Shown here: one piece after another, positions 1,379 through 63,617 of the stretch
Layout: each line of letters opens with the position of its first letter
Position numbering within the stretch: position 1 is the first letter of the stretch
Assembly (NCBI GenBank): GCA_043770315.1
Contig: JAYVIJ010000043.1
Span: forward strand, 1,399-65,398
Reading direction: 5' to 3'
From: Candidatus Altimarinota bacterium
GTDB lineage: Bacteria > Patescibacteriota > Gracilibacteria > BD1-5 > UBA2023
DNA length: 64,000 nt
Made by a program: the position numbers and the translations under genes
Notes under the pieces: model-generated
The model's database searches: none
What the model was told of the DNA's origin: nothing
The model's input: only the letters and a program-made list of their open reading frames with translations

Positions 1379-1403
1379 AAAACCCGCCTAGGCGGGTTTT
1401 TTG
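1377..1403. terminator. Bidirectional rho-independent terminator between convergent genes
   Basis: Perfect 18-nt palindrome aacccgcctaggcgggtt, flanked by an A-run on the left and a T-run on the right. Confidence 0.75.
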
Positions 1404-23900: not shown

Positions 23901-25168
23901 AGTCCTCGGCTTACTTCAAGGGGCTGATTATTAGAATCACGCACTCTTTTTATGCGTATATATTGTGTTCCAAAGGTGGGATCATTAAATTCTATAACAG
24001 TACCTTCTTCATAGAGGAGATGGCTATTTTTTACGAGCGGACCACCCTTCTTGCTCATCATCTTTGCTACTTCATCAATGAATGCCTCATAGAGATCATA
24101 ATTTGGTTCCTCTTCTCAAGCTTCTTCTGCTTCTTTAAGTTTCTTTTCCCGAATTTTCTGATTTATAGTTCTGTCTTCTATCCTTTTGAGATCTTCAGCA
24201 TCATCCGCTGTGACAATACTTTGAAATATTTCTTCGGCAAGTTGTTTTCGTGCATTCTTTTGGTCTAATATTTTTGCGAGATTTTCATGATTGAGATCTC
24301 CTACCGTAAGGATTTTTATTTCTGATCGTTTTAGCCCATCGAGTATTCTTTGTTGGGTTTCTTTTCCAAGTTCCTCAAACTGGTCGCCGTAGATATTTTT
24401 TGCTATCTCATCAAGCTTCCTATCGTCTATGAGAGTATAGCGTAGGGCAAATGCTATGCTTACTTGTGCTCAAAGTTCCTGAAGGAGTCTTATTTTTCTT
24501 TTAGTGGGAGCTTTTGAATATACGAATAAAAGAAATGCTATCTCATCAGTTCCAGGTTTTTGTCAGTAAGTTTTATAATCTTGGACAATCTTGAGGCATT
24601 TTAATTCTTGATCTGACCCCTGTGGTACCATTTTACTGATATCATCAAATATTTGCTCAAATACTTCTCTTTCATTTGGAGTAGAAACAGGAAACTGAGA
24701 ATAATTTTTTTGTATGAAGTTTTTTACGATATTTTTACGATCGATCAAATTTTGAAGTGATTTCTCATTCATCAGAGAGAGTTCTGTCTTAATAGAGAGT
24801 TTTTCTCAATCAAGCTCAGGACATATTTCTATCGTACGTCTTAATGCTCGCTCTCTAAGAAGTGCTAGATTTCTTCCATGGCTGAGTATTCGCTCGATGA
24901 TTTTATCCTCAGATATCTCGGATTCATCGATACTACCATAGTGTTCAGGATCTTCATATTTAATACCACGCGTTTCTACTATCACCGCCTGGACTAGAGC
25001 TTCTTTATTCTGCTGAAATTCATTGAATTTTTTTTGATCTATGGGTTTTCAGAATCTATTTTCTACAGCAAGTTTGATGAGTCAATCTACACTTCCATTT
25101 ACTCGTTTCTTTTTGAGTTTTTCATTGAGTTCTTCGGGTGAGGAGCTTTGATTATTGAGGTCTGACAT
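20933..25168 (-). CDS. 1411-aa hypothetical protein (charged, probably largely helical, no signal peptide)
   Basis: One frame is open from ATG 25166-25168 to TAA 20933-20935. I checked every in-frame triplet between the listed fragments (21020..21520, 22868..23173, 23765..24061, 24563..24772) for TAA/TAG. No domain recognised by eye. Confidence 0.75.
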
Positions 25169-25337
25169 AAAAAATAAATTAGTTATCTCTTGCATTTTAT
25201 CCGAATTTACGCAAAAACACAAATTAAAATTCTATTTTTTTAAGTATAAAAAATTAATTTAATTTAAAGTCAATAAATCAGTACGCTCTATAATTGATGT
25301 TTCTCGAGGCTGAATACTTCTTTGGGATTTTTCGCAT

Positions 25338-41664: not shown

Positions 41665-41819
41665 TGAAGAAGAAGTGAAGAAGGAAAATGATATTGACAA
41701 TCACTATAATAAATTTATTATTATTTCATCTATATTCGAGATATAAAAGAATAGCATTTTTTGCAAAATATGAAGATATGTGGTAGGGTAGTATGGTAAT
41801 ATATTCTAATTTTCATTTT

Positions 41820-44800
41820 ATGTTTACGATTCGTTATGGAAGACATACCTCTGCACAGCAGGTTCATTTAAACTATCTAGCCCCCTGAGCTGCTGCGAGT
41901 GGTCCAAATGAAGCGGTTCCTAAAGCGACATGACCTACGATCGATGATCTTATGAAACAAGCTCGTGAAAAACTCGATGCAGTAAAAACCAATACTGATG
42001 AAAGTTATGTGAGAAATGAGGTCTATGGTTCATGGCTCAGCAGTAGTGCTGTACGAGATATTCTCAAGCAAGTCATCAAAATGAATGAAGGAAAACGAGC
42101 AGATGTTCTCAAACTCATTACTGATATTTCTGCGCAAGCTGAATGGCAGGCTCCGGCGAATAAAAAAATCATAGAAGAGCTCAAAGCTTCATTTGTCATA
42201 GAAGAAAAGAAAATCGAGGAGAAGAGAGATATCGCAACAGCAAAAGTAAAGACAGAGACACGAACTTCTCTTACTGGGCTTGATCGTATGCGATGAAGTC
42301 TAGATTCGGCACGTACAAAGTATGATGGAAGACTGAATTTTAATGATATTATGGCGATCTTCAAGGATCCAGCAGCTTTTAAGAAGTTTGAAGCCATTTC
42401 TAAGAGTGATGCCTATCTTCAGGAAAATAGAGATTGAGTACAAGCTCCAGACAATGAGCTGATGAAACTCCTTGATGCATCAGGATATATCGCACGAGGA
42501 CGATATGGTCTATCGAATAAAAATAACTATCAAAATCCAGAACTTGGTGCAGTCCTCGAGCTTCGTGACGAACTCATGACGCAACCAAAACTTCGAGAAG
42601 ATCTTATGTCTGCAGAATACACTCGTTCTCAGGTCGTCTCTGAATATGATCCAAAATCTCCAAATATTTCTGTGGTACTCCAACATCTTGCAGATCTGAG
42701 TGGTGATGGGGTGTTGACAGCCAACAATGGAAAAGAATATAGCGGTAATGTCGTCTTTGCACTTTTTCAGAAAGTACTTGACTGAGGGAAAGATACGAAT
42801 CTTCACCTAGAAGGAGAACTTCCTCTCTTTAATGCAGTTCGATCAAAAGTAACAAATTTTGATGAATTATATAAACTTATCCAGACCCGTGTGAGTATCA
42901 GTAGTACGGATATAGCAGAAAGACTGAAATCAAAAGATTGACTGAAGTCTCTCGTAAAAGAATTTCATAGAGGACATCTGACTGATACAGCTCGTACGAC
43001 ACGAAATGTATCTCGTGAATTCGATCGGACTAAAGAAACTCGTTATCAGATCGAAAAGGCAGATGAGATGATCCAAGAAGTCGCAAAAATAAAATGAGCC
43101 CTCGTAAAAGAAGGTATGGGCGATAAGGTAGCTGCCAAGATCAAAGAACTCGGAGTCAATCCAGATGGAAAAACAGTCGATGATATCATCGGGAATACAG
43201 CCCTCCAGCTCTTTAAACTCAATCCTCGATTCTACTATTCACTCGGGGCGCATGCTTCAGTGACTGATACTGTGACAGAGACGACAAAAATCACTCAGAC
43301 CATTATCAAGAATATTACGATCGTACAAGATTCAACAGGTCATGAAGTCTCTCGTACATCGACGACTGCTGATGGCGGTACGACGACTGAGAGATCTTCT
43401 GATACAGCTCGAAGTGTAAAACTTAATCCAGTTCTTGTCGTAGGATTCAATCAAGATATATTTCGATATCGATCAGAGACTGCAGGTGCTATAGCTCAGG
43501 CAGGAGTCTGAGCTATAGCATGAGTCGATGGTGTACGATTTCCTATCACTCTCGGAGTCAATGGAGATGTCACACTCGATAACAAGAATGGGAAAATCCA
43601 GACCCAAGGACTCGAAGGGAATTTCGTCGTCGGAGGCCGTATCAGTCTTTCGAAAGATCTCAGATCTGGAGATGTGATCCCATCAGTTGGAGTTGATGTG
43701 AATCCCAATGATGTCAAAAATGCCATCGAGAAACAAGAAGTCCGTCTTGCGAATCTTCTCTCGAAGATCAAAATCGATGATAAAGGTGATGCGAACTTCT
43801 CCGATCTTCGCAAAGAAATAGTAGAACTCGATCGCGCAAATCCAAAAGATAAAAAAATCCAAGCTGAAATCCGTCTTATGCATAGATTCCTCAATGATCT
43901 AGAATCTATCATGATCAGTGATGCTATGAAATCCAAGTCTCCGGAAATGAAGCGAGTACTTCTTGGGAATAATCTTCTCGCATTCCAGTCAAGCTATATC
44001 GCCGCAGTTCGCGATGATCTGAAATGAATGCATGTTGCTGGTCTTAATGTCTCATTTATCCCGATGATCAGTGGGGTATTCGTCGGCCTCAATGTCCAAC
44101 ATATCCAACAAAAAGTCGTAAAGATCGGTGGACAAGATATCGTAGAAGATCGTATCATGACATCACCAAATGTATCTCTTGATACACTGAAAGGAAAGGT
44201 CACACTTGACGCTGATAAAAAATCGCTTATCCTCCAATCTTCTCAGGGTGTTGAGGTAGCTCCAGGTATCACATCAAGCCTCACTCCAGAAGGACTCGTA
44301 AAAATCACTCCAGCAGATGGAAAGAAATTTGAACTCAAAGATGTACGATACAATACACTCGAGTGAGTCAATCTTCGTACACTCTATATCGTCCAAGTTG
44401 ATGCTGTGGCTCCTGCAGCACGCCCAAAAGCAGCGATAGCACCGACTCCAGTTGCTCCGCCATCAGCTATATCAGAATCATGAAATAAGCCGAGAATGGT
44501 ATACAATCAAGCAGAAGTCGTCACACAACTCAGGCAAGCAAATAGTACGGAAGATAAGCTCTTTATCCTCTCACGCACGAATCCTACATTTGCAAAAGCG
44601 ATGGATCTCGTCGTCGATGATGAGTTTGAGTCAGCAATCAGTCTTCTTAAGCAAGATAAAGCCCTTGCCCCTTTTGTAACATATATAAATTCATTAACTG
44701 ATACAGCACAGAGAAACAAATTTCTCGATGATCTTCTTTTTGCGAGTTCAGGTTCACGTAAAACTCGTACACTGACTCAAGCTGAGTGAGCTTCATTTAA

Positions 44801-45806
44801 CGCTGAATATGCCAAAAATCGTTCTGCATTTGCGAATCGACTTGTCGAACATGCTGGACTCAAAAAGGGAACCCCTGAAGCACAAAGACTTATAGATGCA
44901 CATACGGTTCTAGCGAGTGAACTTACTTTTGAGACTCAGGGGGAAGTTGCAAAATTTATAACTGCATCTGAAAAACTTCCTCAAGCAAAAGATATCTCAG
45001 GTTTGGTTACATTCTCTCAGATTAGTCCACAAGGAAAATTGACCGTTGGAGGTCTCAAATGATTCCGCGGAGATATTAATATCGTAAATCTCACATCAGA
45101 TATCACAGATAGCACTATGAAAGATCTCTTGATCGCAGATGCGAGAAGAACTGGAGTTTTGCAGTCGAATATGGACAGTTCGAATGCACATATCAAAAAT
45201 ACTATCAAGACAGATTCTGCCCCACAATTCGATCTGATTACTTATAAGGAATTTCTCCGTACAGGGACTCTTCCAAAGTGATTTGAGTCAGTGTCAGTCG
45301 TCTCAGCTCCACAATACAAGATGGCACGATGCGCTCTTCCATGAGCTGTGTGTTTCAATGATGTAATGCTCCTCGGGTATCCAAAAATCGCAGCAAAACC
45401 TGCAAATCCAAATCTTCCTCCCGTTCCAGAGACTCCAGTAGCGATAGATCAATCTCCGACACTCAGTACTCTCCGTACAGGTGATCGTACAGCAAATGCT
45501 GGTAGTGATACAGAGGCAACACTCGGATTTAACTTCTCTCGAGTGATCAATACAGTAACCAATCAAGTCATCGATAATGTCACGAAAGAAATAGTAAACC
45601 AAACTGTAGTTATCCAACCTCATACAGAACCTGAAGCTCCTCCAGTAGCTCCTCCATTAGTACCTCCTCGGACAGAGCCTGCAGCTCCTCCAGCAGTACC
45701 TCCAGCAGTACCTCCAGTAGCTCCTCCTCCAAGTACGATTCCATCAACTCGACCTCGTCCTGGTACTCCTACTCCACCCCCTCCTTCTCCAACACCAGGA
45801 GGATAG
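41820..45806 (+). CDS. 1328-aa hypothetical protein with a proline-rich C-terminal tail
   Basis: Frame 0 is open from ATG 41820 (alternative ATG 41793) to TAG 45804-45806. All gaps between the seven listed fragments were read codon by codon. No signal peptide seen. The tail reads EPEAPPVAPPLVPPRTEPAAPPAVPPAVPPVAPPPSTIPSTRPRPGTPTPPPPSPTPGG. Confidence 0.75.
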
Positions 45807-45857: not shown

Positions 45858-46076
45858 ATGAAAACATATATACTTATCTTGTCATCACTCTTTCTTCTCA
45901 CATCTTGTGGATGATCGAAGTGAGACACAGATACGCCGACCAATACTGACCCTGTAACTCCTACTGTTTCCCAGACAAAATCCTCAGACTGAGTTCCTGC
46001 CATCGATCCAAGCACTATAGAGAGTGCTGCTATCACGACGGATGGTTCGACGGGAGTGACTATTCGTCCTCGATAA
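45858..46076 (+). CDS. 72-aa lipoprotein (hypothetical)
   Basis: MKTYILILSSLFLLTS-C lipobox, with a Thr/Pro/Ser-rich mature part. Three in-frame TGA. Ends TAA. Confidence 0.55.
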
Positions 46077-46104
46077 TTTCTCTTATTCTTTATTCTTCGC
46101 TTCT

Positions 46105-49100
46105 ATGCGTACCGTACTTACTCGATCTTTGCTCGTACTCGGACTTCTCTTTGGTGGAGCTTTCAGCACCGCTGCTGCAGAACTTCCTTGCAACCAGAGT
46201 TTTTCTCCACTCTATCTCCGATATGGTGCCTTTCACTATCTTCAAGATAAAGTTTCTAACACGAATAACTTCCCACTCTATGCTCAGAGCATGTATGGTG
46301 AGTTCAGTACACTCGGGTACTTCGTAGGAGGAGGACAGCTCGATAAGCCGGTACTCTGGGATATTCCTGCTCTTGCGAGCAATCTTGTGATGATGCAATC
46401 AGAGTTTCCTGTACAGATTGCCAATCGTCCTGCAGTACGATCGACAGATATGGTACGAGGTGATATATATGCACAATATGTAATGACATGGGATATACTC
46501 AATACTGTGACTACAGCAGATGATACGAGACACGTAGAATGTCAGCCATATATCGTGACATGGTGTGGTGATGGAACTAAGGATACTCAGCTTGATTGGA
46601 CAAATACTCCCTATGAATCATGTGATGATGGTGCTCTTAATGGTCAACCTGGAAAGTGTAATGCTACATGTAGTGGTACTACTCCTCCGACTCCAGTTCC
46701 ATGAGTATGTGGATCATCGAATGGTCAGACTCTTGCATCTGTACCAGTGATGAATCTCTGTAATGCTGGTACACCGACAGCAGTATCTGGATCAGGCCCT
46801 TGGACATGGTCATGTACAGGTCTCAATGGTGGAGCAAATAGTCCAGTCTGTAGTGCGAATCCACTCCCTCCCCCAGTGAATGGAGTCTGTAGTAGTACTG
46901 TTTCATGAGAAGTATGATTACCACTTGCGAACGGTGCATGTAATCTAGGTACTGTCATTGGATTTGGATCTACAGGAACCAACCCAGTCAACTATACTTG
47001 GAGCTGTAGTGGTACAAATGGTGGTGCCAATAGTCCTACATGTAATGCAAGCTATACTCCACCACCTCCTGTAGTCAATGGGGTTTGTAGTTCAGCGGTC
47101 ACGGGGCCACAATCAGCACCACTTCTTGCATGAGTATGTAATGCTGGTACAGTAGCATGATTCTCATCTGTGGGTACGAATCCAGTAAACTATTCATGGA
47201 CATGTAATGGACTTAATGGTGGAACCAATAGTTCTTCATGTACAGCGAGTTATATTCCTCCTCCAGTACCAGTCAATGGAGTCTGTAGTTCCACAGTTAC
47301 AGGTCCTCAGAGCTCACCGCTTGTCACAGGTTCTTGTAATGCTGGTTCAGTTTTAGGTTTTCTCGCATCAGGAACAAATCCAGTCAATTATAGCTGGACT
47401 TGTGGATGAGTAAATGGCGGATCAAATAGTCCTACTTGTAATGCCAACTATACTCCTCCCGTCACAAATTTCGCCGTATCGATCAAAAAATATGTCGATA
47501 CATTCGATGCTCAAACCATAAGTGGAGCTGTCATACTCAATACTGGAGACACATTCGATTATATACTCAGAATCAAAAATGAGTGACCAGCTCCTACGAG
47601 CGGTATCACTACCGTGACCGATGCACTTCCTGTAGGTGTCATGCTTAATGGCCCAATATCAGCACCAGGATGGACTTGTACAGGGACAATAAATATTAGC
47701 TGTGCTTCATCTTCAGTTGTTGCCGCGAATGCATTTTACTCAGATATTACACTTCATATGAAGGTAACTGCAACAGGAGGTACTATCACCAATATTGCGA
47801 CAGTATCAAATCCAGGTGGCTCACCACCGACTGGTCCTTCGACTGATCCAGGAGTGATCGTTGTGCCTCCTCCTCCAGTATGTAGTGCTACCTATGTAGG
47901 TGCACTCCCAGCTCCGATCAATGCTACCACCCCAGGTCTTTGTAATGTCGGAACTTCTATGACATTTATGACTTTTGCGAGTGGTACAACACAAAACTTT
48001 ACTTGGTCTTGTAAATCATGAACAAAAACAGTGGGATGTAATGCCAACTATACTCCTCCAGTGAATCATTTCGCGGTATCGATCAAGAAATATGTAAATA
48101 CATTTGATGCTCAGACAGTCAGTGGAGCTGTAATACTCAATACGGGAGATACATTCGAATATATACTAAAGGTGAAAAATGAATGACCAGACTCGACAAC
48201 AGGTACAACAACTGTAGTAGATGTACTGCCTACATGAGTAGTACTCAATGGCTCAATATCAGCACCAGGCTGGACATGTGTAGGAACTACTACTATAATC
48301 TGTATCAACAATAATTCTATCGCTGGAAATACCTTCTTCCCAGATATCACTCTTCCTATGAAGGTGACAGCGACCAGCGGTACTATTACGAACATCGCAT
48401 CAGTCTCGAATCCAGGATGTGGTACCCCTGTATGACCTACGACTGATCCAGGAGTGATCGTTGTTGCACCACCACCAGTATGTGATTCAGGAAAAATCGG
48501 TGTCCAGTCTTCTCCGTTATCCATGGGATATTGTGCAAGTGGTACTGCGACAGGATTCACTGCTGTAGGAGTCAATCCAATCAATTATTCTTGGTCATGT
48601 ATAAATGTGAAAAATCAATCAGTTACTTGTAATGCAAGTTATAGTACAGGAAGCACCCCTTCATGTAATAGTATAACTGTAAATCCTGTTTCTGGAAATA
48701 TCCCCCTTGTATCAAATATTTCTTGTAATACGACAAATGCAACATCAGTTGTTATTACTTGTGGAAATGGTCAAACACTCTCATGATCTATAGGAGTTTG
48801 TACTTATACGACAGTAGGAACATTCACGCCAACTTGTACAGTCAATGGAACTATCACGAATGCAGCATGTAAAGGAACAGTAACAACTACCAATACTCCA
48901 CCTCCTCCTTCCGCTTCTTACGTCTCTATTAAGAAGTACGCTGGTACTCTCGATGGTCAAGATGCGACAGGAGCTCTCTCTGTTGTTCCAGGTGGATCAT
49001 TTAATTACCGATACGATGTATCTAATACAGGTACTGTCGCAGCTACAGGTGTAGTCGTTACAGATACACTGCCTCAGTATGTGAGTATTAATTCAATTAC

Positions 49101-51465
49101 GAAACCAGCAGGATGGAACTGTGTTCAAGGAACAAAAACAGTCTGAGTGGTCGTACATGCTACTCTTGTTTGTACTACTCCTTCTCTTGCAGCAGGTGCT
49201 ACTGTTTCTATAACAGTCAATGCTACTCTGGCTCTCACAACTCCTGCAAACGCACAACTTCGAAATATTGCTTACGTATGTAAGCAAGGTGATGCTCCTA
49301 CAGTCAACTGTGATCCTACTTGTATCGTCGATCCGACACACCCAAGATGTAATCCTCCACCTCCACCTCCTCAGTGTGATCCTATGCCAGGAAGTCCAAA
49401 CTATGATCCTGCATGTGTAGTGACTCCTCCTTCGACTCTTCGATCGTGTGATACACTCACATCACTTCCAAGTGGTTCAACCCTCTCTCCAAATGTAGAT
49501 GTCACATATACATGTGCTGCTACAGGATCTATCGCTATCCCAGCAAATCTCGAATACTCTATCAAGTGTGGTGCTGGTGATACATCGACTGGTTCGACGT
49601 ATACAGGATCCAATACTCGTGTGTGTCGTACGCCAAGTACAAACTCTACTTCACAGACTATCACTTGTGCTGTCCGAGATAAGTCGACTGGTGTAGTATT
49701 CTCTGGATCTGAAATCTGAGCATGTAATGTTACGAAGACGACTTCAGGTGGTGGTAGTAGCACGACGATTCTCTATGTTCCAAAATGTGTAAATGGTAGC
49801 CCGACATGTGCTACTACTGGAAATTATGCTGATACAGCACTTTGTAAACTGGGAGAATGAAGAGATTGTTATAGCAATCAAACAGATTGTGAGATTGCAA
49901 AATGAACTCTCTCTTGTGGATGAGGCGGATGTAGTGGACCAAGCTGTGGAAGTTGTGTCGGAGCAGGATGTTCGAATGGATGAGGATACTGTGGTGACTG
50001 AGTTCTTCAGTCTGGTGAAGAGTGTGATGTAGCTGGTGCTACTTGGTGTGGACAACGGGGAGAAAGAGACTATCTTGGTGATCTTATCGAATGTCAGATC
50101 AAGGGTCTTACGACTCCTGGAGCTAATCCTATCACGGACCTCTGGATGACGATCCCGACTCTTTCAAATACACGACTTGGATATACATGGCTTGATGGTA
50201 CAGTAGGAAAAATCCGATTTAATGATAATGGTATGGTCCTCGGTGTGAATACACGAGCCTTCACTATAGCTGACAAGGTAGGATTTGGAATCAAAAGAGA
50301 GTTTAATGTCCCACTTACTGTCGAAGCAAACAAGATCATATGTCTGACATCTTCAGGGACAAGCATGAATAGTAATACTGCATGTACAAACTTTGGTAAC
50401 CTCGTTCCAGCATCGATGAAGTTTACGGTTCCTGCTACGGGGAAGCAATATGTACTTATCGGAAATGGTGATTACCAAGTCCGACAACTTGATGGAACTT
50501 ATAGACAGTATACTGTGACAGGAAATCCGAATAATATCGATCTCTTCAAGGGTGCAAATACCTATGTCACTTCAAATGGAACTATGAAACTCTATGAAGC
50601 GTTCTACGGTACTCAGATCGGTCTTGATGGTCAACTTGCACTCTATCATAATAGTATCACTACAGGTCAACCAATCGATCTCGCAGCACTCAGAGTGAAT
50701 GTATCAGGAGCAAAAGTCGGAGGAACATCATCGACCGTGAATCGTAAACTCGAAACCTATATTAATAGTACAAGTCTTGTCAGTATATTCCTCTCTGGAT
50801 TCCAAGGATATACGACGACGACCTCTTCGACTGATGCAGTCGGTGGTGGCTCAGCTACAGCAGTAAATGGTGGAGTGACAGTAAATACTACCAATGCTCC
50901 TCTAGGAGGACTCAATGTCGCTGGTGCCGCTATACCAGCAGCGTATAGACTCAATGGAAATGATAACATATATTCTGTAAGAGGTGATGTGATCATGAAT
51001 TGTACAAGCGGTATCACTGCTACAGAACTCCAAGGGATCCGTACACTTATCGTAGAAAATGGTGACCTCATCATCAACTGTAATAATGGCTATGGATCAT
51101 CAGATATATCTTCGAGCTGGGCATTCATCGTAAAAAATGGAAATATCCGAGTCGCAAAAGAAGTGACCAATATGGCTGGTATCTATGTATCTATAGGTAC
51201 ACCTGGTGCTACTGCTTGTGATGGAACAGGGAATATCTGTTCTGTAGGAAATCAAGCAACCAATAATATTCTCCGTCTTAATGGAAGTATGTATGGAAAT
51301 GCGAAACCACTCTTCGATAGTCGTCTCTATGTCCGTGGTACGAATGCTTATGACATACTCACAACAGGAGTCATCATCTCCTACTCAAATCGAGCCCTCG
51401 TGAATCCTCCACCACTTCTCTCACAATATCTCAATAACTATAGTGTGACAAGAGTCGTGAAGTAA
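46105..51465 (+). CDS. 1786-aa secreted repeat adhesin-like protein
   Basis: Frame 1 is open from ATG 46105 to TAA 51463-51465 (all gaps read codon by codon). Signal peptide ...GAFSTAAAE. CGDG...CDDG Cys-rich repeats. Seven ~60-aa repeats (VNGVCSS...NPVNYSWTCNGLNGG.NS..C). Three DUF11-like units (VSIKKYV.TFDAQT...LP.GV...GWTC). The C-terminal module is shared with 12534..15158. Confidence 0.85.
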
Positions 51466-56700: not shown

Positions 56701-56982
56701 TTAAAAATTGATAGTAAGTGCTTCTTTTTCTTCCATTTCTTCTTGTGTATGCATTGCCTGAACGACTTGGCTTATTTCTTTGGTAAGAAATTGGCGAGTC
56801 TGCTCGAGATAGTTTTCGATCAGATCTTTTTTTCGAAGAAGACTTTCATCGTCCATTTCATGAAGTTCTTTATAGATTGCTTCCTTTTTTCCATTCTCTG
56901 TAATCACAAATATCTCCGATAATGTGATGACGAGACCTATAATGAATGTATCACGTACGTGAGGATCGCTAAATGTAGACAT
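56701..56982 (-). CDS. Hypothetical small protein (93 aa), paralog of 57397..57693
   Basis: Uninterrupted ORF ending in TAA. DTFIIGLVITLSEIFVITENGKKEAIYKELHEMDDESLLRKKDLIENYLEQ aligns with its paralog. Confidence 0.65.
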   Translation of the reverse strand: MSTFSDPHVRDTFIIGLVITLSEIFVITENGKKEAIYKELHEMDDESLLRKKDLIENYLEQTRQFLTKEISQVVQAMHTQEEMEEKEALTINF

Positions 56983-57396: not shown

Positions 57397-57693
57397 TTAT
57401 CCGATAATGATACTGAGAGACATATCAATATTTCTTCGTTCCTCGTTCTCGAGGAAGAGGTGCTCCATATGCAGCAGTCGATAGAAGTACGATTTATTGA
57501 TCTCGGCGGCTTGCCCGAAGTACTCGTCGATATCATCTTTCTTCTTCAGGAGACTATCATCGTCGAGTCCAGAGAGTCCTTCCATGATTTTTTCACGTTT
57601 GGTCTCATCCCCGATTTCGAATATCTGCAAAATAATCTCGGTAATACCGACGATAAAATTTTTGCGAGCATCTTCTGTGAAGAGAGGTTCCAT
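57397..57693 (-). CDS. Hypothetical small protein (98 aa), paralog of 56701..56982
   Basis: Uninterrupted ORF ending in TAA. KNFIVGITEIILQIFEIGDETKREKIMEGLSGLDDDSLLKKKDDIDEYFGQ. Confidence 0.65.
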   Translation of the reverse strand: MEPLFTEDARKNFIVGITEIILQIFEIGDETKREKIMEGLSGLDDDSLLKKKDDIDEYFGQAAEINKSYFYRLLHMEHLFLENEERRNIDMSLSIIIG

Positions 57694-57898: not shown

Positions 57899-59776
57899 AT
57901 GTCGAAAATTATCGGTATCGACCTCGGAACTACGAACTCATGTGTCGCCTTCATGGAAGGTGGACAAGCAAAGGTGATCCCGAATACAGAAGGAGGGAAC
58001 ACGACTCCATCAGTCGTCGCTCTGAAGAAAGACGGTGAGACGATCGTCGGTATGCCTGCACGTCGTCAGTCTGTCACGAATCCTGGAAAGACGATCTTCT
58101 CTGCAAAACGCTTCATCGGACGCAAGTTCTCTGAAGTCACAGAAGAACTCAAGGCAGTACCATTTAAGGTCACGAAAGGTGATGATGGTGGATGTATGAT
58201 CGAATGGGACGGCAAGCCTGTCCGCCCAGAAGAGATCTCTGCGAAAGTCCTCGAAAAGCTCAAACATGATGCCGAGAAATATCTCGGTCAGAAAGTCACA
58301 GAAGCCGTCATCACGGTGCCTGCATACTTTAATGACTCTGAGCGTCAAGCGACGATCAATGCGGGAAAGATCGCTGGACTCGACGTCAAGCGTATCGTGA
58401 ACGAGCCTACTGCCGCAGCCCTCGCGTACGGAGCAGATAAGAACAAAGATCAGAAAGTAGCTGTATATGACTTCGGTGGTGGTACCTTCGATATCTCTAT
58501 CCTCGAGATCGGAGCAGAAGGGACATTCGAAGTACTCGCGACCAATGGTGATACGCACCTCGGAGGTGATGACTTCGATCAGAAGATCTTCGAATACGTC
58601 ATGAATGAGTTCCAGAAAGAGACCGGGATCGACCTTCGCAAGGATGCTATGGCAGTCCAGCGTGTCCGTTCTGCTTCAGAAAAAGCAAAGATCGAACTCT
58701 CATCTGCGACTTCTACTGAGATCAATGAACCATTCATCGCGATGAATGATGGAGTACCAAGCAACCTGAATATGACGATCACTCGTGCGAAGTTCGAAGA
58801 GCTCATCGCTGATCTCGTCGAGCGCTCTATGGAGCCTTGCCGAAAAGTGATGAAAGATGCAGGACTTCAAGCAGATCAGATCCATGAAGTCATCCTCGTC
58901 GGAGGATCGACTCGTGTCCCGATGATCAAGGCGAAAGTCGAACAATTTTTCAAGAAAAAACCAAACGAATCCGTCCATCCAGATGAAGCGGTCGCTCTCG
59001 GTGCTGCGATCCAAGCGGGGATCATCCAAGGAGATGTGAAGGATGTCCTCCTTCTCGATGTCACTCCACTTTCTCTCGGTATCGAGACACTCGGTGGTGT
59101 CATGACTCGTATGGTCGAACGCAACACGACGATCCCAAGTAGTAAATCTCAGGTCTACTCGACGGCTGCAGATAACCAAGATAGCGTAGAGATCCACATC
59201 CTCCAAGGTGAGCGTGAAATGGCGAATGACAATAAGTCACTCGGACGATTCATCCTCTCGGGCATCGCGAATGCTCCACGTGGTATACCACAGATCGAAG
59301 TCACCCTCGATATCGATGCCTCTGGAGTCCTCCATGTCACAGCCAAAGATAAGGGAACTGGAAAAGAGCAAAAAATCACAGTGCAGGGAAGTACTGGTAT
59401 GAGCGATGATGAAGTGGATAAACTCGTGAAAGAAGCAGAAGCCAACCGCGAAGCTGATAAGAAGAAGAAAGAATCTATCGAAGTCCGCAATCACGCTGAC
59501 TCTATGGTCTACCAGTCTGAGAAGACCCTCGAAGAGAACAAAGGAAAGTACGATGAGAAAGACGGAGAGACTGCGAAGTCGGCTCTCGAGCGTCTCAAGC
59601 AAGTCCTCGCAGACAGCAACTCTTCGAAAGAAGATATAGAAGAAGCGAATAAGACACTCTCTGATGTCATGATGAAGATCGGACAAGCCATCTACTCGCA
59701 TGCAGGAGATCCTGAGAAAGCCGAAGAGAAGAAAAATGATGATGGAAGTGTCGAGGCAGAGGTAGAGGAGAAGTAG
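57899..59776 (+). CDS. dnaK: Molecular chaperone DnaK (Hsp70)
   Basis: [22 protein letters not shown]..., DLGGGTFD-type [26 protein letters not shown]. 625 aa. Contains no TGA codon at all. Confidence 0.96.
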
Positions 59777-59782
59777 TAACGT

Positions 59783-59812
59783 AATCCCCACTTATTTGAG
59801 TGGGGATTTTTC
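59783..59812 (+). terminator. Rho-independent terminator of dnaK
   Basis: aatccccact-tatttg-agtggggatt followed by a T-run. Confidence 0.7.
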
Positions 59813-59826
59813 TAAATACGGTTTAC

Positions 59827-60989
59827 ATGCCATTTAAAAATCAACTAAAAGCGTCACAGGTAATACAATTTCTTAAACAGAAGGATTATGAGTATAAAAA
59901 AGAGATGTGACAATGATGATTATGAAGAACAATTTTATTGAGGGATCCTATTGTGGATTTAGATTTTGTGTGTAAGAAATATTCACCAGAGAGTTGAATC
60001 GGTGATTTATATTTTCCACATTTTATCCAAGAGATCCGAGTTCTACATTTAATGCATCATAAAAATATTGTAAGGGTATTTAATTACTACTTATATCCAG
60101 AGCAAAGAACAGGATATATTCTTATGGAATATATTGAATGAAGTCATATTGATAAGTATCTATTTGAAAATCAAGTAAAATTAATGATATTTTTTCTCAA
60201 CTTATTGATGGATTTGTGTATTTAGATGAAAATAGCATCTTACATAGAGATATTCGTCCTGCAAATATAATGGTTTCTGATGAAGGACTTGCTAAAATTA
60301 TCGATTTTTGATTTGGAAAAAAAATTGAAACATCAATTGACAACAATAAAAGTATTAGCTTGAACTGGCGATATGCTCCACCAGATGAGTTCACTGAATG
60401 ACAATATACAATATCTACAGATATATATTTTTTAGGAAAACTTTTTGAAGAAATCATTAAAAAAGATCCTGACTTGTATAATTTTCAATATACAGAGTTA
60501 CTTAAAAAAATGGTAAAACCATCTCCTAGCGATAGATATAATAGATTTATCGAGGTTCAGAATGATATTCTATCTTTAGAAGGAGACGATAATGGCTTTG
60601 AAGTATCATTTTCAGATGAAGATAAGTCAGACTATAGGGGCTTTGCGTGAGAATTATTACACTCCTTGTCTAAAATATCTAATGATATTACGTACGTTAC
60701 TGATATTGAAGAAATACAAAAAAAATTATCAGATATATATAAAAATAGTATGCTAGAAGATGTTGTTTACGATATGGTCTGATTAATTAATGTCTTTATT
60801 AAATGAGAATGGACATATTATTCAAAAAGACAGATGTTCACATCAACTCTAGGGTCGTTCTTAAAATTATTGAAATCACACTCAAAGGATGAGCAGAAAA
60901 TTATTTTAGATCACTTGCGTATTCGTATAAGTGGTATTGATCGAATAAAGAATCCAGATGAAATTAGCATCGAGGATATTCCATTTTAG
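59827..60989 (+). pseudogene. Ser/Thr protein kinase with an apparent 1-nt frameshift between subdomains V and VI
   Basis: Frame 1 (from 59827): G-loop EM-G-Q-G-G-L-G-RT (four TGA), FVCKKY, IQEIRVLHLMHHKNIV, GYILMEYIE-G-, then TAG at 60223. Frame 0 (open from 60156): INDIFSQLIDGFVYLDENSILHRDIRPANI, IIDF-G-FGK, to TAG 60987-60989. The shift maps to the gtaaaatt run at about 60175-60182. Confidence 0.7.
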
Positions 60990-61074
60990 ATAGTTCTTCC
61001 ACTTCGGAGGGATTTTTTTATTGCCAACATGAAACAATTATGTTATAATTAATTATAATTATTATTTGGCAAGT

Positions 61075-61803
61075 ATGGAACAACTTCAATTTCAAGAGAT
61101 GCTCGATGAGATCGATTCGCTCAAAATAAAGCGAAGAGAGTGACTCCAAAAAACTTCATACTTTCGAAATCATCCAGATTACTTAGAGTTTCTTCTTCGA
61201 ATTACCTATGAGCTTACAGATAAGGATTTTGAATATTTTGTTGCATATATTTTGAAGCATGATGGATTTACTAGTATTATAGTACAAGGTTGATATAAAG
61301 ATGGTGGTACTGATATAGTTGCTGAAAAGAACTGAAAAACTTTTCTTATTCAGTGCAAACAATGGGCTAGTCCATATGTAACAATGAAGAAAGCAGGAGA
61401 ATTTTATGGAACGATTTATCCGCTTAAGAAAAAAAATCCAGATGCAGTTATTGCGTATGTAACGACCAGTTATATAAACGATGAAGTTTGAGACTTTTTT
61501 CATATCCACTGAATTGACTGAACAATTTCGAATGGAGAACTTCTAGATTCTTGTCGTGAATTGTGACTTTTTACCGAGGAATGATGGGGTAGGTTGATTC
61601 GATATATAAAGCAAGAACGAATTTTAAAATTAAGAGAAGAATTTCAGTCTTCACTTCCTGTTGAAAGTATTTTAAATAAGTTACAAAGACAACGAGTATA
61701 TGAATTAAGAAATCATCTCCAACCTAGTAGACATAAAGCATATATCAATTCAAGTTCGATTGATTACTCTGTGAATTTTTTTCAATACTGGAACCTCGTA
61801 TAA
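61075..61803 (+). CDS. Mrr-like restriction endonuclease domain protein
   Basis: 242 aa. DFEYFVAYILKHDGFTSIIVQG-G-YKDGGTDIVAEKN-G-KTFLIQCKQW is the Mrr-type catalytic core (D...D...QxK). ISNGELLD follows. The C-terminal ~70 aa are unassigned. Confidence 0.75.
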
Positions 61804-61813
61804 GACTTTTCCT

Positions 61814-62656
61814 ATGAATAAATGTCCATATACACTCTTCCGCGCGATCACCCAGAAGCTACGATGAGTCTCACCAGAGATATCGAAGGATGATCCCAAA
61901 TTTCAGACTTATAAAATGATAGGTGTCTATCTGCAGGAGATATTCCCGCAGAGTTTTTTCGATCAGATTCTTCTCGAGGTAGAACATATAGATGAAAGTG
62001 GTAGGATCGTCTGAATTGATCTCGATGATGAGATGAGATGATTATGAGATGACATGGCTCAGCTTGTAGAATGTGGATCATTGCAGTCGAGTCTTGCAAA
62101 GAAAGTGTATTATTTGAATGAGCGATGCAAGCAGGCGGTGATAGATTTTTTTATGATGCGAGACTCAGAGAATCCAAATGCATATACACTTATCTGAATC
62201 TCATGAGATTCAGATTTTAATGCTGCCGTACGCTGAGGTATAGGGACATTCTTTCATGAGTTTCTTTTTTGTATATCGGGATTTACTTATGAATGAGCGA
62301 AAAATGGTCCAATAATCGTAAGTAATATCACAGCGATACATGGAGAGAAGGCTTCTATAGAAAAGACGCTTCGAATGTCTGGATTTTTATCGAGATCGAA
62401 CATTCAGTTTTTACCGAGCAACTATACATTCGATGTATCGACTTGACTCCTTACTCGAGTGAATGGCATGAGGGAGCCATATAAGAATAACGCTGTCGGA
62501 TGTCCTGCTATTCGCAAATTCTCATGATGAGATGAGCCAGTATTTCATCGTATGTTTGAGACTCTGTGGAAAGTAGTGACATCGGAATTACCGGTAATAA
62601 GTCATACTCATATTATCGAAGCGACATCAGGGCAAGTATGTAGACGAATAGAATAG
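61814..62656 (+). CDS. Hypothetical protein (280 aa)
   Basis: ATG 61814 to TAG 62654-62656, read codon by codon with eleven in-frame TGA. Begins 10 nt after the Mrr-like gene. No motif recognised. Confidence 0.6.
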
Positions 62657-62701
62657 ATAAGATTATTTAGAACTATTGACATTCATATATAAATTATACT
62701 T

Positions 62702-63559
62702 ATGTCAATAGAACAACATACATCCATAGATGGTGCGCTGACACTTGCACCGCAATTATTTTTTCTCAGTATTGGGACGACGGAGGACCTTACCAGATGA
62801 GTCGAAAATATGGAGCAGATACAAGCTCGCATGTACCACTATCTGTCTCAAGCCCGAGCCCTTCTCGATAAGCCGAGAGCGGGATGGATGCATGACTATA
62901 AGAAAATTCCAGAAAAGTATTGGGAGACGGTCGGAGCACATATGGTGAAAGTCGGTATCGCAGGATATAAAATCCCAGATGGACTTCTCAAGTGGCATTT
63001 ACGGAGAAATGAGGTACCATCAGCAGAGCTTTTACAGATTTATGCAGATACGAATACGCGTATTCGTATCACGAGAAAGGGATTTTTTCATGATTTCCAA
63101 GAGTGGGGCAAAAACCCTGACCTCACCCCAGGAGAAGCGACCAAAGAAGAGCAAGATCGTATAGAGTATGAGGCAATGCTCGAATATGCTCGTGCATATG
63201 GTGATGACTTTCCATTGCGAATGTATGAAAGTATGCGTGAGAAAACACTCGAAAATGAGATGGTAATGAATCCTGATAAAATGGACGCAGCCGTGAGGCT
63301 CTCAATTATGAACGAGAGGTTCCAGGTTGCGATGTATCAGAATTCTTCCCCTATACGTTTCGAAAACTTACTTTTCCTATGATGAAGGAAATTCTCGCTA
63401 CCCTCATCGACCATAGGAATGACTATCCAAATGATTTTTTTATTCAATATGATTCGCTCTTATTTCATGGAGGGAATATCGATGCATGGAAGAGGGAAAT
63501 GGATCTTCGAGCTCGTTTGGTCTAGTATGGGAACTCTCTGCGAAACTCGGGAGATTTAA
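62702..63559 (+). CDS. HD-domain phosphohydrolase (YfbR / HD_3-like); 3' end uncertain
   Basis: LLDKPRAGWMHD...ETVGAHMVKV and GFFHDFQEW (HD dyad). Under strict table 25 the ORF runs to TAA 63557-63559. Protein-like sequence, however, ends at the tandem TGA-TGA at 63380-63385. An alternative start is ATG 62810. Confidence 0.65.
63379..63525 (+). CDS. Possible 48-aa ORF starting in the ATGATGA junction
   Basis: MMKEILATLIDHRNDYPNDFFIQYDSLLFHGGNIDAWKREMDLRARLV looks more protein-like than the overlapping read-through tail of the HD ORF. No family recognised. Confidence 0.3.
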   Translation: MMKEILATLIDHRNDYPNDFFIQYDSLLFHGGNIDAWKREMDLRARLV

Positions 63560-63584
63560 GGAGCGGTGGTGAGATGATTAGAAT

Positions 63585-63617
63585 AATCCCTCCATTTTGG
63601 AGGGATTTTCTATTTTT
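63585..63617. terminator. Bidirectional rho-independent terminator
   Basis: aatccctcc-atttt-ggagggatt followed by ttctattttt, between convergent genes. Confidence 0.6.

What the first reader, a model, noticed from the sequence alone, without database searches (positions are those of the whole stretch)
59827..63559. AT-rich, co-directional cluster after dnaK: kinase, Mrr-like nuclease, unknown protein, HD hydrolase (candidate defence island)
Immediately after the dnaK terminator come four tightly spaced plus-strand genes:
- A Ser/Thr kinase with a ~140-aa unknown C-terminal domain.
- An Mrr-type restriction-endonuclease-fold protein with an extra C-terminal domain.
- A 280-aa protein with no recognisable motif, starting 10 nt after the nuclease.
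- An HD phosphohydrolase.

The cluster ends at a terminator. Kinase, nuclease and HD components recur in anti-phage systems. The region is visibly more AT-rich than the flanking housekeeping genes. I cannot match this specific combination to a named system.
Basis: partly seen in the sequence, partly recalled or inferred. Interest (0 to 1): 0.65.

Follow-up and report, generated by a model that had tools for sequence, protein, structure and literature searches.

The report
Variable accessory-gene slot after dnaK
The four genes after dnaK are real only if TGA is read as glycine (a Gracilibacteria genome), and they are independent tenants of a strain-variable slot, not one defence system: a swappable Mrr-type nuclease, a broken imported kinase, an orphan protein and a broken conserved nucleotidase.

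Summary
The window comes from a Candidatus Gracilibacteria genome that reads TGA as glycine (code 25). Under the standard code the four genes do not exist as ORFs. With code 25 they do.

- **Kinase (59827-60989):** a Ser/Thr kinase, broken by a 1-nt deletion in an A-run.
- **Nuclease (61075-61803):** an Mrr_cat nuclease.
- **Orphan (61814-62656):** a 280-aa protein of unknown function.
- **HD protein (62702-63581):** an HDDC2/YfbR-like hydrolase, broken by two 1-nt deletions.

Only the kinase and the nuclease are AT-rich.

Comparison with about 20 related loci shows the genes are not inherited together.
- The nuclease sits right after dnaK across the clade. Its alleles are incongruent with the flanks: synonymous divergence is saturated where the neighbouring gene shows 0.04. 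In one near-identical strain another gene replaces it.
- The kinase occurs only in this genome. It belongs to a widespread solitary kinase family, several of whose members lie beside restriction, Hma or Lamassu genes.
- The HD gene is vertically inherited with or without the other three.
- The orphan occurs in three lineages, always after the nuclease, but does not co-diverge with it.

Verdict: this is a defence-hotspot-like variable slot beside a conserved anchor gene, not a four-gene system. Interest is moderate.

The parts
59783..59811 (+). dnaK terminator hairpin (AATCCCCACT-TATTTG-AGTGGGGATT plus a T-run); left boundary of the variable slot
   Evidence: Read directly from the sequence. 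The dnaK stop is at 59774-59776. Homology to relatives ends at the dnaK 3' end.
59827..60989 (+). Ser/Thr protein kinase with a conserved ~140-aa C-terminal domain ending in ..PF. Interrupted by a 1-nt loss in the A-run at 60177-60180. 13 in-frame TGA (Gly) codons; 28.5% GC.
   Evidence: Pkinase 4.6e-31, residues 21-230. Frames 59827-60225 and 60156-60989. At least 104 relatives, most matched over nearly the full length at 36-50% identity, with the C-terminal domain conserved. No homolog in any related Gracilibacteria locus.
60992..61014 (+). Terminator of the kinase cassette
   Evidence: Terminator scan. In L014 the dnaK terminator and the nuclease promoter lie about 100 nt apart with no kinase between them.
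61021..61049 (+). Sigma-70-type promoter of the nuclease (TTGCCA-17-TATAAT, with extended TG)
   Evidence: 11 of 12 matches. Largely conserved in L001 although the coding sequence downstream is only 48% identical at the protein level.
61075..61803 (+). Mrr_cat (PD-QxK) nuclease, 242 aa, with a helical N-terminus, a C-terminal helical hairpin and a conserved FFQYWNLV tail. 9 in-frame TGA codons; 32.4% GC.
   Evidence: Mrr_cat 8.5e-12. Invariant E53, D80 and Q93-C-K95 across 36 homologs. AF2 model pLDDT 89.6. Fold matches to AF1548, MspJI, AspBHI and Hjc. 45 family members. Lies next to dnaK in most loci.
61814..62656 (+). Orphan 280-aa protein, 10 nt downstream of the nuclease stop. 11 in-frame TGA codons; function unknown.
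   Evidence: Homologs only in L001-L004 and fragment P0003. dN/dS 0.21 against L004. No Pfam, PADLOC, NCBIfam, PHROG or PDB match. AF2 pLDDT 37.
62702..63581 (+). HDDC2/YfbR-like HD phosphohydrolase gene. Single-base deletions at 63296/63297 and 63514/63515 put the conserved C-terminal ~95 residues out of frame.
   Evidence: Family profile against HDDC2 (4dmb), E = 4.4e-6. Invariant H78, H128-D129, D138, D190 and D193. Alignment to the intact L001 gene. Conserved in L001 and L005-L013.
63585..63607 (+). Terminator AATCCCTCC-ATTTT-GGAGGGATT; right boundary of the slot. The same element follows the nuclease in L014 and bounds the cassette in L005/L010.
62192..62215 (.). Perfect 24-nt palindrome inside the orphan gene (unexplained)
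   Evidence: Expected number per window 0.005.
63047..63070 (.). Perfect 24-nt palindrome inside the HD gene (unexplained)
   Evidence: 23 of 24 in L001.

Best explanation
The interval from the dnaK stop to the conserved AATCCCTCC...GGAGGGATT terminator is a strain-variable accessory-gene slot in a code-25 Gracilibacteria genome. Its four genes are independent tenants.

1. **Nuclease.** A solitary Mrr_cat (PD-QxK) nuclease with intact catalytic residues is expressed from its own promoter. It is the usual occupant. I infer that it acts as a methyltransferase-less, Type IV-like restriction nuclease against foreign DNA. Its deeply diverged alleles are exchanged between lineages by homologous recombination through the conserved flanks (dnaK on one side), and some strains lose it.
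2. **Kinase.** The kinase is a separately acquired, terminator-bounded cassette. It comes from a widespread family of solitary kinases found in mobile, defence-rich neighbourhoods. I infer a phosphorylation-based abortive-infection-type role. In this genome a frameshift between the N-lobe and the C-lobe has inactivated it.
3. **Orphan.** The 280-aa protein is a real gene under purifying selection and is probably co-transcribed with the nuclease. It is not an allele-specific partner of the nuclease, and its function is unknown.
4. **HD gene.** This is a vertically inherited HDDC2/YfbR-like (deoxy)nucleotide phosphohydrolase of the clade, plausibly a nucleotide-pool enzyme. It merely lies inside the slot in this lineage, and two frameshifts have disrupted it here.

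**Shown:** the genetic code, gene models, lesions, domains, synteny, allele incongruence and cassette replacement. **Inferred:** the biochemical roles in defence.
For: **Code 25 and lineage.**

**Cassette replacement.** L005 and L010 are 98.5% identical up to the dnaK stop and again from the terminator onward. Between these points one carries the nuclease and the other an unrelated 150-aa gene.

**Nuclease position.** It lies directly after dnaK in L009, L010, L011, L014, L016, L101-L104 and L106/L107. L018 has a Ymh/HEPN gene (Hypoth_Ymh 1.5e-26; Aga_HEPN 3.5e-16) between dnaK and the nuclease, in the position the kinase occupies here.

**Allele incongruence.**
- L010: UvrB 94%, nuclease 36%.
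- L016: UvrB 78%, nuclease 74%.
- L001: orphan 96%, HD 88%, nuclease 48%.
- Window versus L001: synonymous divergence is saturated in the nuclease (pS 0.75) and 0.04 in the adjacent orphan.
- Within one allele class the nuclease is under purifying selection (dN/dS 0.10 against L014).

**Nuclease catalysis and fold.** Catalytic E53/D80/Q93xK95 are invariant. The fold matches MspJI, AspBHI, AF1548 and Hjc nuclease cores.

**Kinase.**
- Insertion boundaries are defined.
- At least 104 relatives, most matched over nearly the full length, occur in contigs of 26-64% GC, with no conserved neighbour.
- Neighbours include Type I RM, Hma, Type IIG RM and Lamassu, plus Shedu, PbeA, PDC-S02/S05, HipA, AbiEii-like AAA_21, transposase and ImpB.

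**HD gene.** It is found in 11 related loci whatever the other three genes do, and its identity tracks UvrB. The metal ligands are invariant and the family profile hits HDDC2.
Against: - No defence phenotype or biochemical activity is known for any of these proteins.
- PADLOC and NCBIfam hits to the kinase cover only the generic kinase domain. Such hits also flag housekeeping kinases (PMC11514479).
- The nuclease lacks a recognisable DNA-modification reader domain, so 'Type IV-like' is an inference.
- Its stable position next to dnaK across a whole clade is unusual for a defence gene and would also fit a lineage-specific housekeeping nuclease.
- Kinase-family neighbourhoods also contain ordinary metabolic genes, and I ran no background control for defence-gene enrichment.
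- The three frameshifts could be assembly errors. I could not inspect reads.
Confidence: 0.6

Rival explanations
1. The nuclease and the 280-aa orphan form a two-gene module (an operon). The orphan would be a sensor, regulator or immunity partner of the nuclease.
For: The orphan is found only immediately downstream of the nuclease, with 9-10 nt spacing and no terminator between, in all three lineages that have it: the window, L001-L003 and L004. It is under purifying selection (dN/dS 0.21). It uses TGA heavily, like the nuclease.
Against: Most nuclease loci lack it: L009, L010, L011, L014, L016-L018, L101 and L106. Between the window and L001 the nuclease allele is replaced (48% identity, synonymous sites saturated) while the orphan stays 96% identical. 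An allele-specific partner should co-vary. No structural or sequence clue to its function was obtained.
Confidence: 0.2
2. The Mrr_cat protein is a lineage-specific housekeeping nuclease (repair, resolution, or nucleotide scavenging together with the HD nucleotidase in these biosynthetically poor bacteria), not a defence gene.
For: Its position directly after dnaK is conserved across relatives with nuclease identity of 30-88%. The fold also resembles Hjc Holliday-junction resolvases. An HD nucleotidase lies nearby, and no methyltransferase or mobile-element gene is adjacent.
Against: It is absent or replaced in L005, L007 and L013, including in a strain 98.5% identical in the flanks to one that has it. 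Its divergence is strongly incongruent with UvrB, HD and the orphan, and synonymous sites are saturated between close relatives. Those patterns are typical of exchanged conflict genes. HD and the nuclease are not consistently adjacent.
Confidence: 0.15
3. One reading: the kinase, nuclease, orphan and HD hydrolase together form one novel four-gene anti-phage system.
For: The genes are co-directional and tightly spaced, all lie within one slot bounded by terminators, and the domain types recur in defence systems.
Against: No other locus carries the four together. The kinase is unique to this window and has its own terminator. The HD gene is inherited vertically without the others. The nuclease stands alone in most relatives. 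Two components are frameshifted here. PADLOC recognises no multi-gene system.
Confidence: 0.04

Closest known systems
Type IV (modification-dependent) restriction nucleases with an Mrr_cat PD-QxK domain: EcoKMrr, MspJI, AspBHI
   Same: Mrr_cat domain (PF04471, 8.5e-12). The D...QxK catalytic motif is invariant. The fold matches the MspJI and AspBHI catalytic domains. It is a solitary gene with no cognate methyltransferase. The motif and architecture of Mrr and MspJI are as described in PMC12707154.
   Different: It has no N-terminal winged-helix domain (Mrr) or SRA-like domain (MspJI). Instead it has a short helical N-terminus and a C-terminal helical hairpin with an FFQYWNLV tail. At 242 aa it is smaller. 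The family was seen only in Gracilibacteria-type (TGA-recoded) contigs. No activity data exist.
Kinase-based defence proteins: PD-T4-6, Stk2, the MADS kinase MAD6, BREX PglW
   Same: An active-looking Hanks-type kinase domain: G-loop, VxK, HRD..N and DFG are conserved. It is a solitary gene, and family members lie next to restriction, Hma and Lamassu genes. The best PADLOC hits are mad6 (1.9e-32) and PD-T4-6 (1.8e-30).
   Different: Matches cover only the kinase domain. The conserved ~140-aa C-terminal domain ending in PF is in no model. The NCBIfam MAD6 score is 88 bits against a cut-off of 460. No other mad or BREX genes are present. The copy in this window is frameshifted.
HDDC2 / YfbR / YGL101W HD-domain 5'-(deoxy)nucleotidases
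   Same: The PRTGW, H...HD...D and DKxD motifs are invariant. The family profile hits HDDC2 (4dmb) at E = 4.4e-6 and yeast YGL101W at 0.034.
   Different: About 290 aa, with extra N- and C-terminal segments. It falls below Pfam thresholds. It is restricted to a Gracilibacteria subclade: 12 proteins in 5.8 billion. It is frameshifted in this window.
Defence hotspots between conserved anchor genes, such as the enterobacterial immigration control region (hsd-mrr-mcrBC between yjiA and yjiN)
   Same: Gene content varies between fixed boundaries. An Mrr-type nuclease is a frequent tenant. Alleles and cassettes are exchanged through flanking homology (the ICR is described in PMC12707154).
   Different: The slot is much smaller (0.8-3.8 kb). 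It is anchored on dnaK and a conserved terminator, in a reduced code-25 genome. Only some tenants are recognisable defence genes, and no integrase or mobile-element genes were seen.

Membership tests
Genetic code 25 (TGA = Gly; Gracilibacteria/Absconditabacteria) | In-frame TGA at conserved glycine positions, and long ORFs restored when TGA is read through | tested here: met
   TGA falls at the kinase G-loop, MEYIE-G and DFG. ORFs of 1281, 1432 and 1814 codons (stop to stop) appear only with code 25. TGA positions are conserved in homologs. Relatives are titled Candidatus Gracilibacteria.
Genetic code 25 | tRNA-Gly with anticodon UCA | tested here: inconclusive
   Only tRNA-Leu(CAA) and two tRNA-Met genes lie in this window. 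The rest of the genome was not available.
Mrr-family Type IV restriction endonuclease | Mrr_cat PD-(D/E/Q)xK catalytic domain with intact catalytic residues | tested here: met
   PF04471 at 8.5e-12, above the gathering score. E53, D80, Q93 and K95 are invariant in 36 sequences. Fold match to MspJI and AspBHI.
Mrr-family Type IV restriction endonuclease | N-terminal modification-reading DNA-binding domain (winged helix in Mrr, SRA-like in MspJI) | tested here: not met
   No Pfam domain was found outside residues 46-140. The AF2 model shows only helices before the nuclease core and a helical hairpin after it.
Mrr-family Type IV restriction endonuclease | No cognate methyltransferase at the locus | tested here: met
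   No methyltransferase was found among the neighbours in the window or in related loci.
Mrr-family Type IV restriction endonuclease | Cleavage dependent on DNA modification; restriction of modified phage or plasmid DNA | not testable with these tools
   Needs recoded expression and in vivo or in vitro assays.
MADS kinase MAD6 | Score above the NCBIfam equivalog cut-off, and presence of the other mad genes | tested here: not met
   NF047741 scores 88.3 bits against a cut-off of 460, matching the kinase domain only. No mad2-like methyltransferase or other mad genes are in the window.
PD-T4-6 single-gene kinase defence | Full-length similarity to PD-T4-6 models, beyond the generic kinase domain | tested here: not met
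   The best PD-T4-6 hits cover protein residues 18-234 only; the C-terminal domain is unmatched. PADLOC PD-T4-6 hits are known to pick up conserved housekeeping kinases (PMC11514479).
PD-T4-6 single-gene kinase defence | Protection against phage when expressed | not testable with these tools
   Experimental.
HD_3 / YfbR / HDDC2 5'-nucleotidase | H...HD...D metal ligands and significant profile similarity | tested here: met
   Invariant H78, H128-D129, D138 and D190/D193. HDDC2 at E = 4.4e-6 with the family profile. The single sequence gives only E = 0.33, and there is no Pfam hit.
HD_3 / YfbR / HDDC2 5'-nucleotidase | Intact reading frame in this genome | tested here: not met
   Two single-base deletions relative to L001 put the conserved C-terminal third out of frame.
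Defence island / hotspot (operational) | Variable gene content between conserved flanks in close relatives | tested here: met
   Cassette swap between L005 and L010. Different tenants occupy the slot in the window, L001, L014 and L018.
Defence island / hotspot (operational) | Enrichment of recognised defence genes among the tenants | tested here: inconclusive
   Recognised: Mrr_cat nuclease, a HEPN/Ymh gene in L018, and a kinase of a family that lies beside defence genes in several loci. Several tenants have no match (the orphan, gene X of L001, and the 150-aa gene has only a weak PDC-S05 hit). HD is not a defence gene.
   No other locus has all four. Pairwise co-occurrence holds only for nuclease plus orphan, in 3 lineages.

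The most novel reading that the evidence does not exclude
Two readings remain open.

(a) The kinase plus its conserved C-terminal domain (ending in acidic residues followed by [LIV]PF) defines an undescribed single-gene anti-phage kinase. It has at least 104 relatives across phyla and on a phage contig. It is always solitary, and in several loci it is wedged among restriction, Hma, Lamassu and Shedu genes.

(b) The dnaK-anchored Mrr_cat nuclease, with or without the orphan 280-aa protein, is a Gracilibacteria-specific restriction module. Its alleles would be maintained by balancing selection and exchanged through dnaK homology.
Probability: 0.3. Interest if true: 0.6.

Novelty: new member of a known kind. 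Interest (0 to 1): 0.4.

Why it matters
- **Annotation.** It shows how a recoded (TGA = Gly) genome hides genes from standard annotation. Read correctly, an apparent multi-gene "defence system" resolves into independent tenants of a recombination-driven slot.
- **Biology of Candidate Phyla Radiation bacteria.** Their immune repertoire is poorly known. This locus gives a concrete, easily located hotspot (the dnaK 3' flank) for cataloguing accessory and defence genes. It also gives a lineage-specific Mrr-type nuclease family with clear signs of allele exchange.
- **Defence biology more broadly.** The kinase family is a testable candidate for a new single-gene system, because standard-code homologs exist that can be expressed directly.

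Tried and rejected
- **Standard-code ORF calling** found no genes in the region.
- **Orphan protein, all negative:**
  - PDB sequence search gave only noise.
  - A word-indexed search found 2 relatives.
  - A full HMMER profile search of 1.84 billion representatives added only a 125-aa fragment.
  - A metagenome scan found nothing.
  - Pfam, PADLOC, NCBIfam and PHROGs gave no hits.
  - The AF2 model had pLDDT 37 and was unusable, so no fold search was run. The tool accepted only database versions with Trp at TGA positions, which may have hurt the model.
- **PADLOC on the four proteins** gave only generic kinase and Mrr-domain hits.
- **MAD6 and PD-T4-6 membership** was rejected on coverage and cut-off.
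- **A J-domain idea** for the nuclease, prompted by 'HPD' in the window's copy, was dropped because the motif is not conserved in homologs.
- **Programmed frameshifting** in the kinase has no support. The junction is a plain A4 run and homologs are single ORFs.
- **A conserved partner gene for the kinase family:** none was found.
- **Counting defence genes among 143 kinase-family neighbours** gave a list of families but no per-protein count and no background control.
- **A literature search for an already-named version of this kinase family** was inconclusive. One query failed on syntax.


Full report
**1. The observation and the genetic code.**
With the standard bacterial code the reported region has no genes. 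No plus-strand ORF longer than 69 aa lies between 59,800 and 62,745. Reading TGA as a sense codon restores long ORFs across the whole window, including stop-to-stop frames of 1281, 1432 and 1814 codons.

In the kinase, in-frame TGAs fall exactly on glycines that define the fold: the G-Q-G-G-L-G loop, MEYIE-G and D-F-G. TGA is therefore Gly (code 25), not Trp. TGA positions are conserved in homologs, which the public databases translate as Trp. The closest genomes are titled Candidatus Gracilibacteria.

**2. Gene models and lesions.**
- *Kinase, 59827-60989.* It is split over two frames. A single base is missing in the A-run at 60177-60180, between ...YLFENQVK and INDIFSQLIDGF.... Homologs are single ORFs through this point.
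- *Nuclease, 61075-61803* (242 aa), and *orphan, 61814-62656* (280 aa, 10 nt downstream). Both are intact.
- *HD-like gene, starting at 62702.* Relative to the 88-92% identical relative L001, one base is missing at 63296/63297 and one at 63514/63515. The conserved C-terminal ~95 residues are therefore out of frame. The ancestral stop is at 63579-63581, not 63559.

The many long intact ORFs elsewhere in the window argue against a generally error-prone assembly. I could not inspect reads.

Terminators lie after dnaK (59783-59811), after the kinase (60992-61014) and after HD (63585-63607). A near-consensus promoter (61021-61049) precedes the nuclease. Only the kinase (28.5% GC) and the nuclease (32.4%) are AT-rich. 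The orphan (39.6%) and HD (43.5%) match the window mean of 40.6%.

**3. What the proteins are.**
- *Kinase.* Pkinase 4.6e-31, residues 21-230, followed by about 140 residues with no Pfam match.
- *Nuclease.* Mrr_cat 8.5e-12, residues 46-140. E53, D80 and Q93-x-K95 are invariant in 36 homologs. The AlphaFold model is confident (pLDDT 89.6, pTM 0.89). Its core matches AF1548, the catalytic domains of the modification-dependent enzymes MspJI and AspBHI, and Hjc resolvases. The "extra C-terminal domain" is a helical hairpin plus a conserved FFQYWNLV tail. There is no winged-helix or SRA reader domain.
- *HD protein.* A family profile hits human HDDC2 (E = 4.4e-6) and yeast YGL101W. The H...HD...D ligands are invariant.
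- *Orphan.* No detectable relatives outside a very narrow clade, even with an exhaustive HMMER search. No usable structure model was obtained.

**4. Comparative context.**
I recovered about 20 related Gracilibacteria loci. I compared them using code-25 ORFs.

The backbone uvrB ... dnaK is conserved. Downstream of dnaK the content varies.

| Locus | Content after dnaK |
|---|---|
| Window | kinase, nuclease, orphan, HD |
| L001 | unrelated gene X (the contig starts here, so dnaK is not seen), nuclease, orphan, HD |
| L004 | nuclease, orphan, then a lipoprotein-like gene |
| L014 | nuclease only, then the same AATAATCCCTCC...GGAGGGATT terminator that follows HD in the window |
| L009, L010, L011, L016, L101, L106 | nuclease, followed by assorted other genes |
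| L018 | a Ymh/HEPN gene and a small ORF between dnaK and the nuclease |
| L005, L007, L013 | no nuclease |

L005 and L010 are 98.5% identical up to the dnaK stop and again from the terminator onward. Between those points one carries the nuclease and the other an unrelated 150-aa gene. This is a cassette slot with fixed boundaries.

**5. The nuclease is positionally fixed but allelically swapped.**
Its identity to the window's copy is incongruent with the neighbours.
- L010: UvrB 94%, nuclease 36%.
- L016: UvrB 78%, nuclease 74%.
- L001: orphan 96%, HD 88%, nuclease 48%.

Between the window and L001 the promoter upstream is well conserved and the orphan gene downstream is close to identical. 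The nuclease coding sequence between them is saturated at synonymous sites (pS 0.75), against dS 0.04 in the adjacent orphan. Within one allele class the gene is under purifying selection (dN/dS 0.10 against L014).

This is replacement of anciently diverged alleles by recombination through conserved flanks. It is not simply fast evolution. Together with presence/absence polymorphism, it is the pattern seen at restriction loci such as the enterobacterial immigration control region (PMC12707154).

**6. The kinase is an imported cassette from a widespread family.**
L014 has only about 100 nt (terminator plus promoter) between dnaK and an 88%-identical nuclease. The window has a 1.2-kb kinase cassette with its own terminator at that point.

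No related Gracilibacteria locus has the kinase. A metagenome scan, however, found at least 104 relatives. Most match over nearly the full length at 36-50% identity, in contigs of 26-64% GC. One viral contig also carries one. The C-terminal domain and a terminal ..PF motif are conserved, and the catalytic motifs are intact.

The family has no conserved neighbour. Members do sit in these contexts:
- next to Type I restriction genes (L041);
- inside an Hma helicase-methylase-ATPase system (L067);
- next to Type IIG restriction genes (L084);
- next to Lamassu genes on the viral contig (L020).

Other neighbours include Shedu, PbeA, PDC-S02/S05, HipA, AbiEii-like ATPases, transposases and ImpB, but also ordinary metabolic genes.

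The window's copy uses TGA for 13 of its 22 glycine codons. It has therefore resided in, or came from, code-25 organisms. It was not transferred recently from a standard-code donor.

PADLOC (mad6, PD-T4-6) and NCBIfam (MAD6, 88 bits against a cut-off of 460) match only the kinase domain. Such hits are known to flag housekeeping kinases too (PMC11514479).

**7. The orphan and the HD gene.**
The orphan is a real gene (dN/dS 0.21 against a 72%-identical homolog; TGA positions conserved). It is always immediately downstream of the nuclease. Most nuclease loci lack it, and it stays 96% identical when the nuclease allele is swapped. It is therefore not an allele-specific partner.

The HD gene occurs in L001 and L005-L013 whatever the other three genes do. 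Its identity tracks UvrB: 94 with 80-81, 80 with 59, 76 with 62. It is therefore inherited vertically. In L004 it is not adjacent to the orphan.

**8. Synthesis.**
The interval from the dnaK stop to the conserved terminator is a small, recombination-driven accessory slot. Its default tenant is a solitary Mrr_cat nuclease. I infer this nuclease to be a Type IV-like restriction enzyme.

In this genome the slot also holds a broken kinase from a family that lies beside defence genes in several loci, an orphan gene, and a broken clade-conserved nucleotidase. "Candidate defence island" is thus partly right as a description of the locus. "One system of four genes" is not supported.

**9. Caveats.**
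- All functional roles are inferred.
- The nuclease lacks a reader domain, and its long-term residence next to dnaK would also fit a housekeeping role.
- Defence enrichment around the kinase family was not tested against a background.
- The frameshifts were not verified in reads.
- The database proteins used for modelling carry Trp at TGA positions.

**10. Unexplained.**
Two perfect 24-nt palindromes lie inside the orphan (62192-62215) and HD (63047-63070) coding sequences. The expected number per window is 0.005. In 191 kb of related loci, all other palindromes with arms of at least 10 nt are intergenic and terminator-like.

Noticed in passing
window 62192-62215 and 63047-63070: Two perfect 24-nt palindromes (12+12, no spacer) lie inside coding sequence: ATCTGAATCTCA|TGAGATTCAGAT in the orphan gene and GATACGAATACG|CGTATTCGTATC in the HD gene. 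Markov shuffles expect 0.005 per 64 kb. The only other one in the window (1377-1402) looks like a bidirectional terminator. The first is identical in L001 but not palindromic in L004. The second is 23 of 24 in L001. In 191 kb of related loci, all other palindromes with arms of at least 10 nt are intergenic and terminator-like.
   Followed up: partly
window 62664-62720: An imperfect 26-nt inverted repeat brackets the HD start codon (core CTATTGACAT ... ATGTCAATAG). It includes a perfect TTGACA hexamer. It could be an operator or a hairpin that sequesters the start codon.
   Followed up: no
window 57899-59776 (dnaK): dnaK contains no TGA codon among its 52 glycines and has 49% GC, against 40.6% for the window. 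Neighbouring genes use TGA for 15-50% of their glycines. The AT-rich kinase, the nuclease and the orphan use TGA for about half.
   Followed up: partly
window 63583-63607; L014 5654-5685; L005 7066-7095; L001 about 3270-3300: The same terminator element (AATAATCCCTCC-loop-GGAGGGATT) marks the right edge of the variable slot in several genomes. It follows the nuclease in L014 and HD in the window and L001. It may serve as the right-hand recombination anchor.
   Followed up: partly
L018 766-1470: A Hypoth_Ymh / HEPN-like gene (Pfam 1.5e-26; PADLOC Aga_HEPN 3.5e-16, PD-Lambda-3_B 1.2e-14) plus a 97-aa ORF with a hydrophobic stretch (possibly membrane-spanning) occupy the position between dnaK and the nuclease that the kinase occupies in the window.
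   Followed up: partly
L067 3248-16464: A member of the kinase family is embedded in an Hma-type system. The gene order is RadC-like, HmaC/DUF499 ATPase, a 202-aa protein, the kinase, HmaB/DUF1156 methylase, PLD-helicase (HmaA/PbeA-like).
   Followed up: partly
L020 2627-9128 (IMG/VR viral contig, 26% GC): A kinase-family member lies about 2.6 kb downstream of a complete Lamassu pair (LmuA 1.4e-117, LmuB 1.6e-201). Upstream of the pair are ORFs that look by eye like a holin and an amidase endolysin (not searched). This suggests a prophage-borne accessory region.
   Followed up: partly
window 56701-56982 and 57397-57693 (minus strand): Two paralogous small proteins (93 and 98 aa, sharing ...F(I)IG(L/I)..I..IF.I....K.......L...DD.SLL.KKD.I..Y..Q) lie just upstream of dnaK. 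A similar pair is present in L013. No known domain was noted.
   Followed up: no
L007 7101-8303 and L013 5002-6243: In two relatives that lack the nuclease, the gene right after dnaK is an unrelated 400-aa or 413-aa protein with no Pfam or PADLOC match. The L013 protein has hydrophobic stretches near its C-terminus.
   Followed up: partly
window 7092-10892, 20933-25222, 41793-45806, 46024-51465: Very large ORFs (1266, 1429, 1337 and 1813 aa) become visible only with code 25. Several start with signal-peptide-like sequences and are probably surface proteins.
   Followed up: no
L105 6001-6723: One distant member of the nuclease family (39% identity) lies after rpsB-tsf instead of dnaK. It is the only exception to the dnaK linkage among the loci examined.
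   Followed up: no
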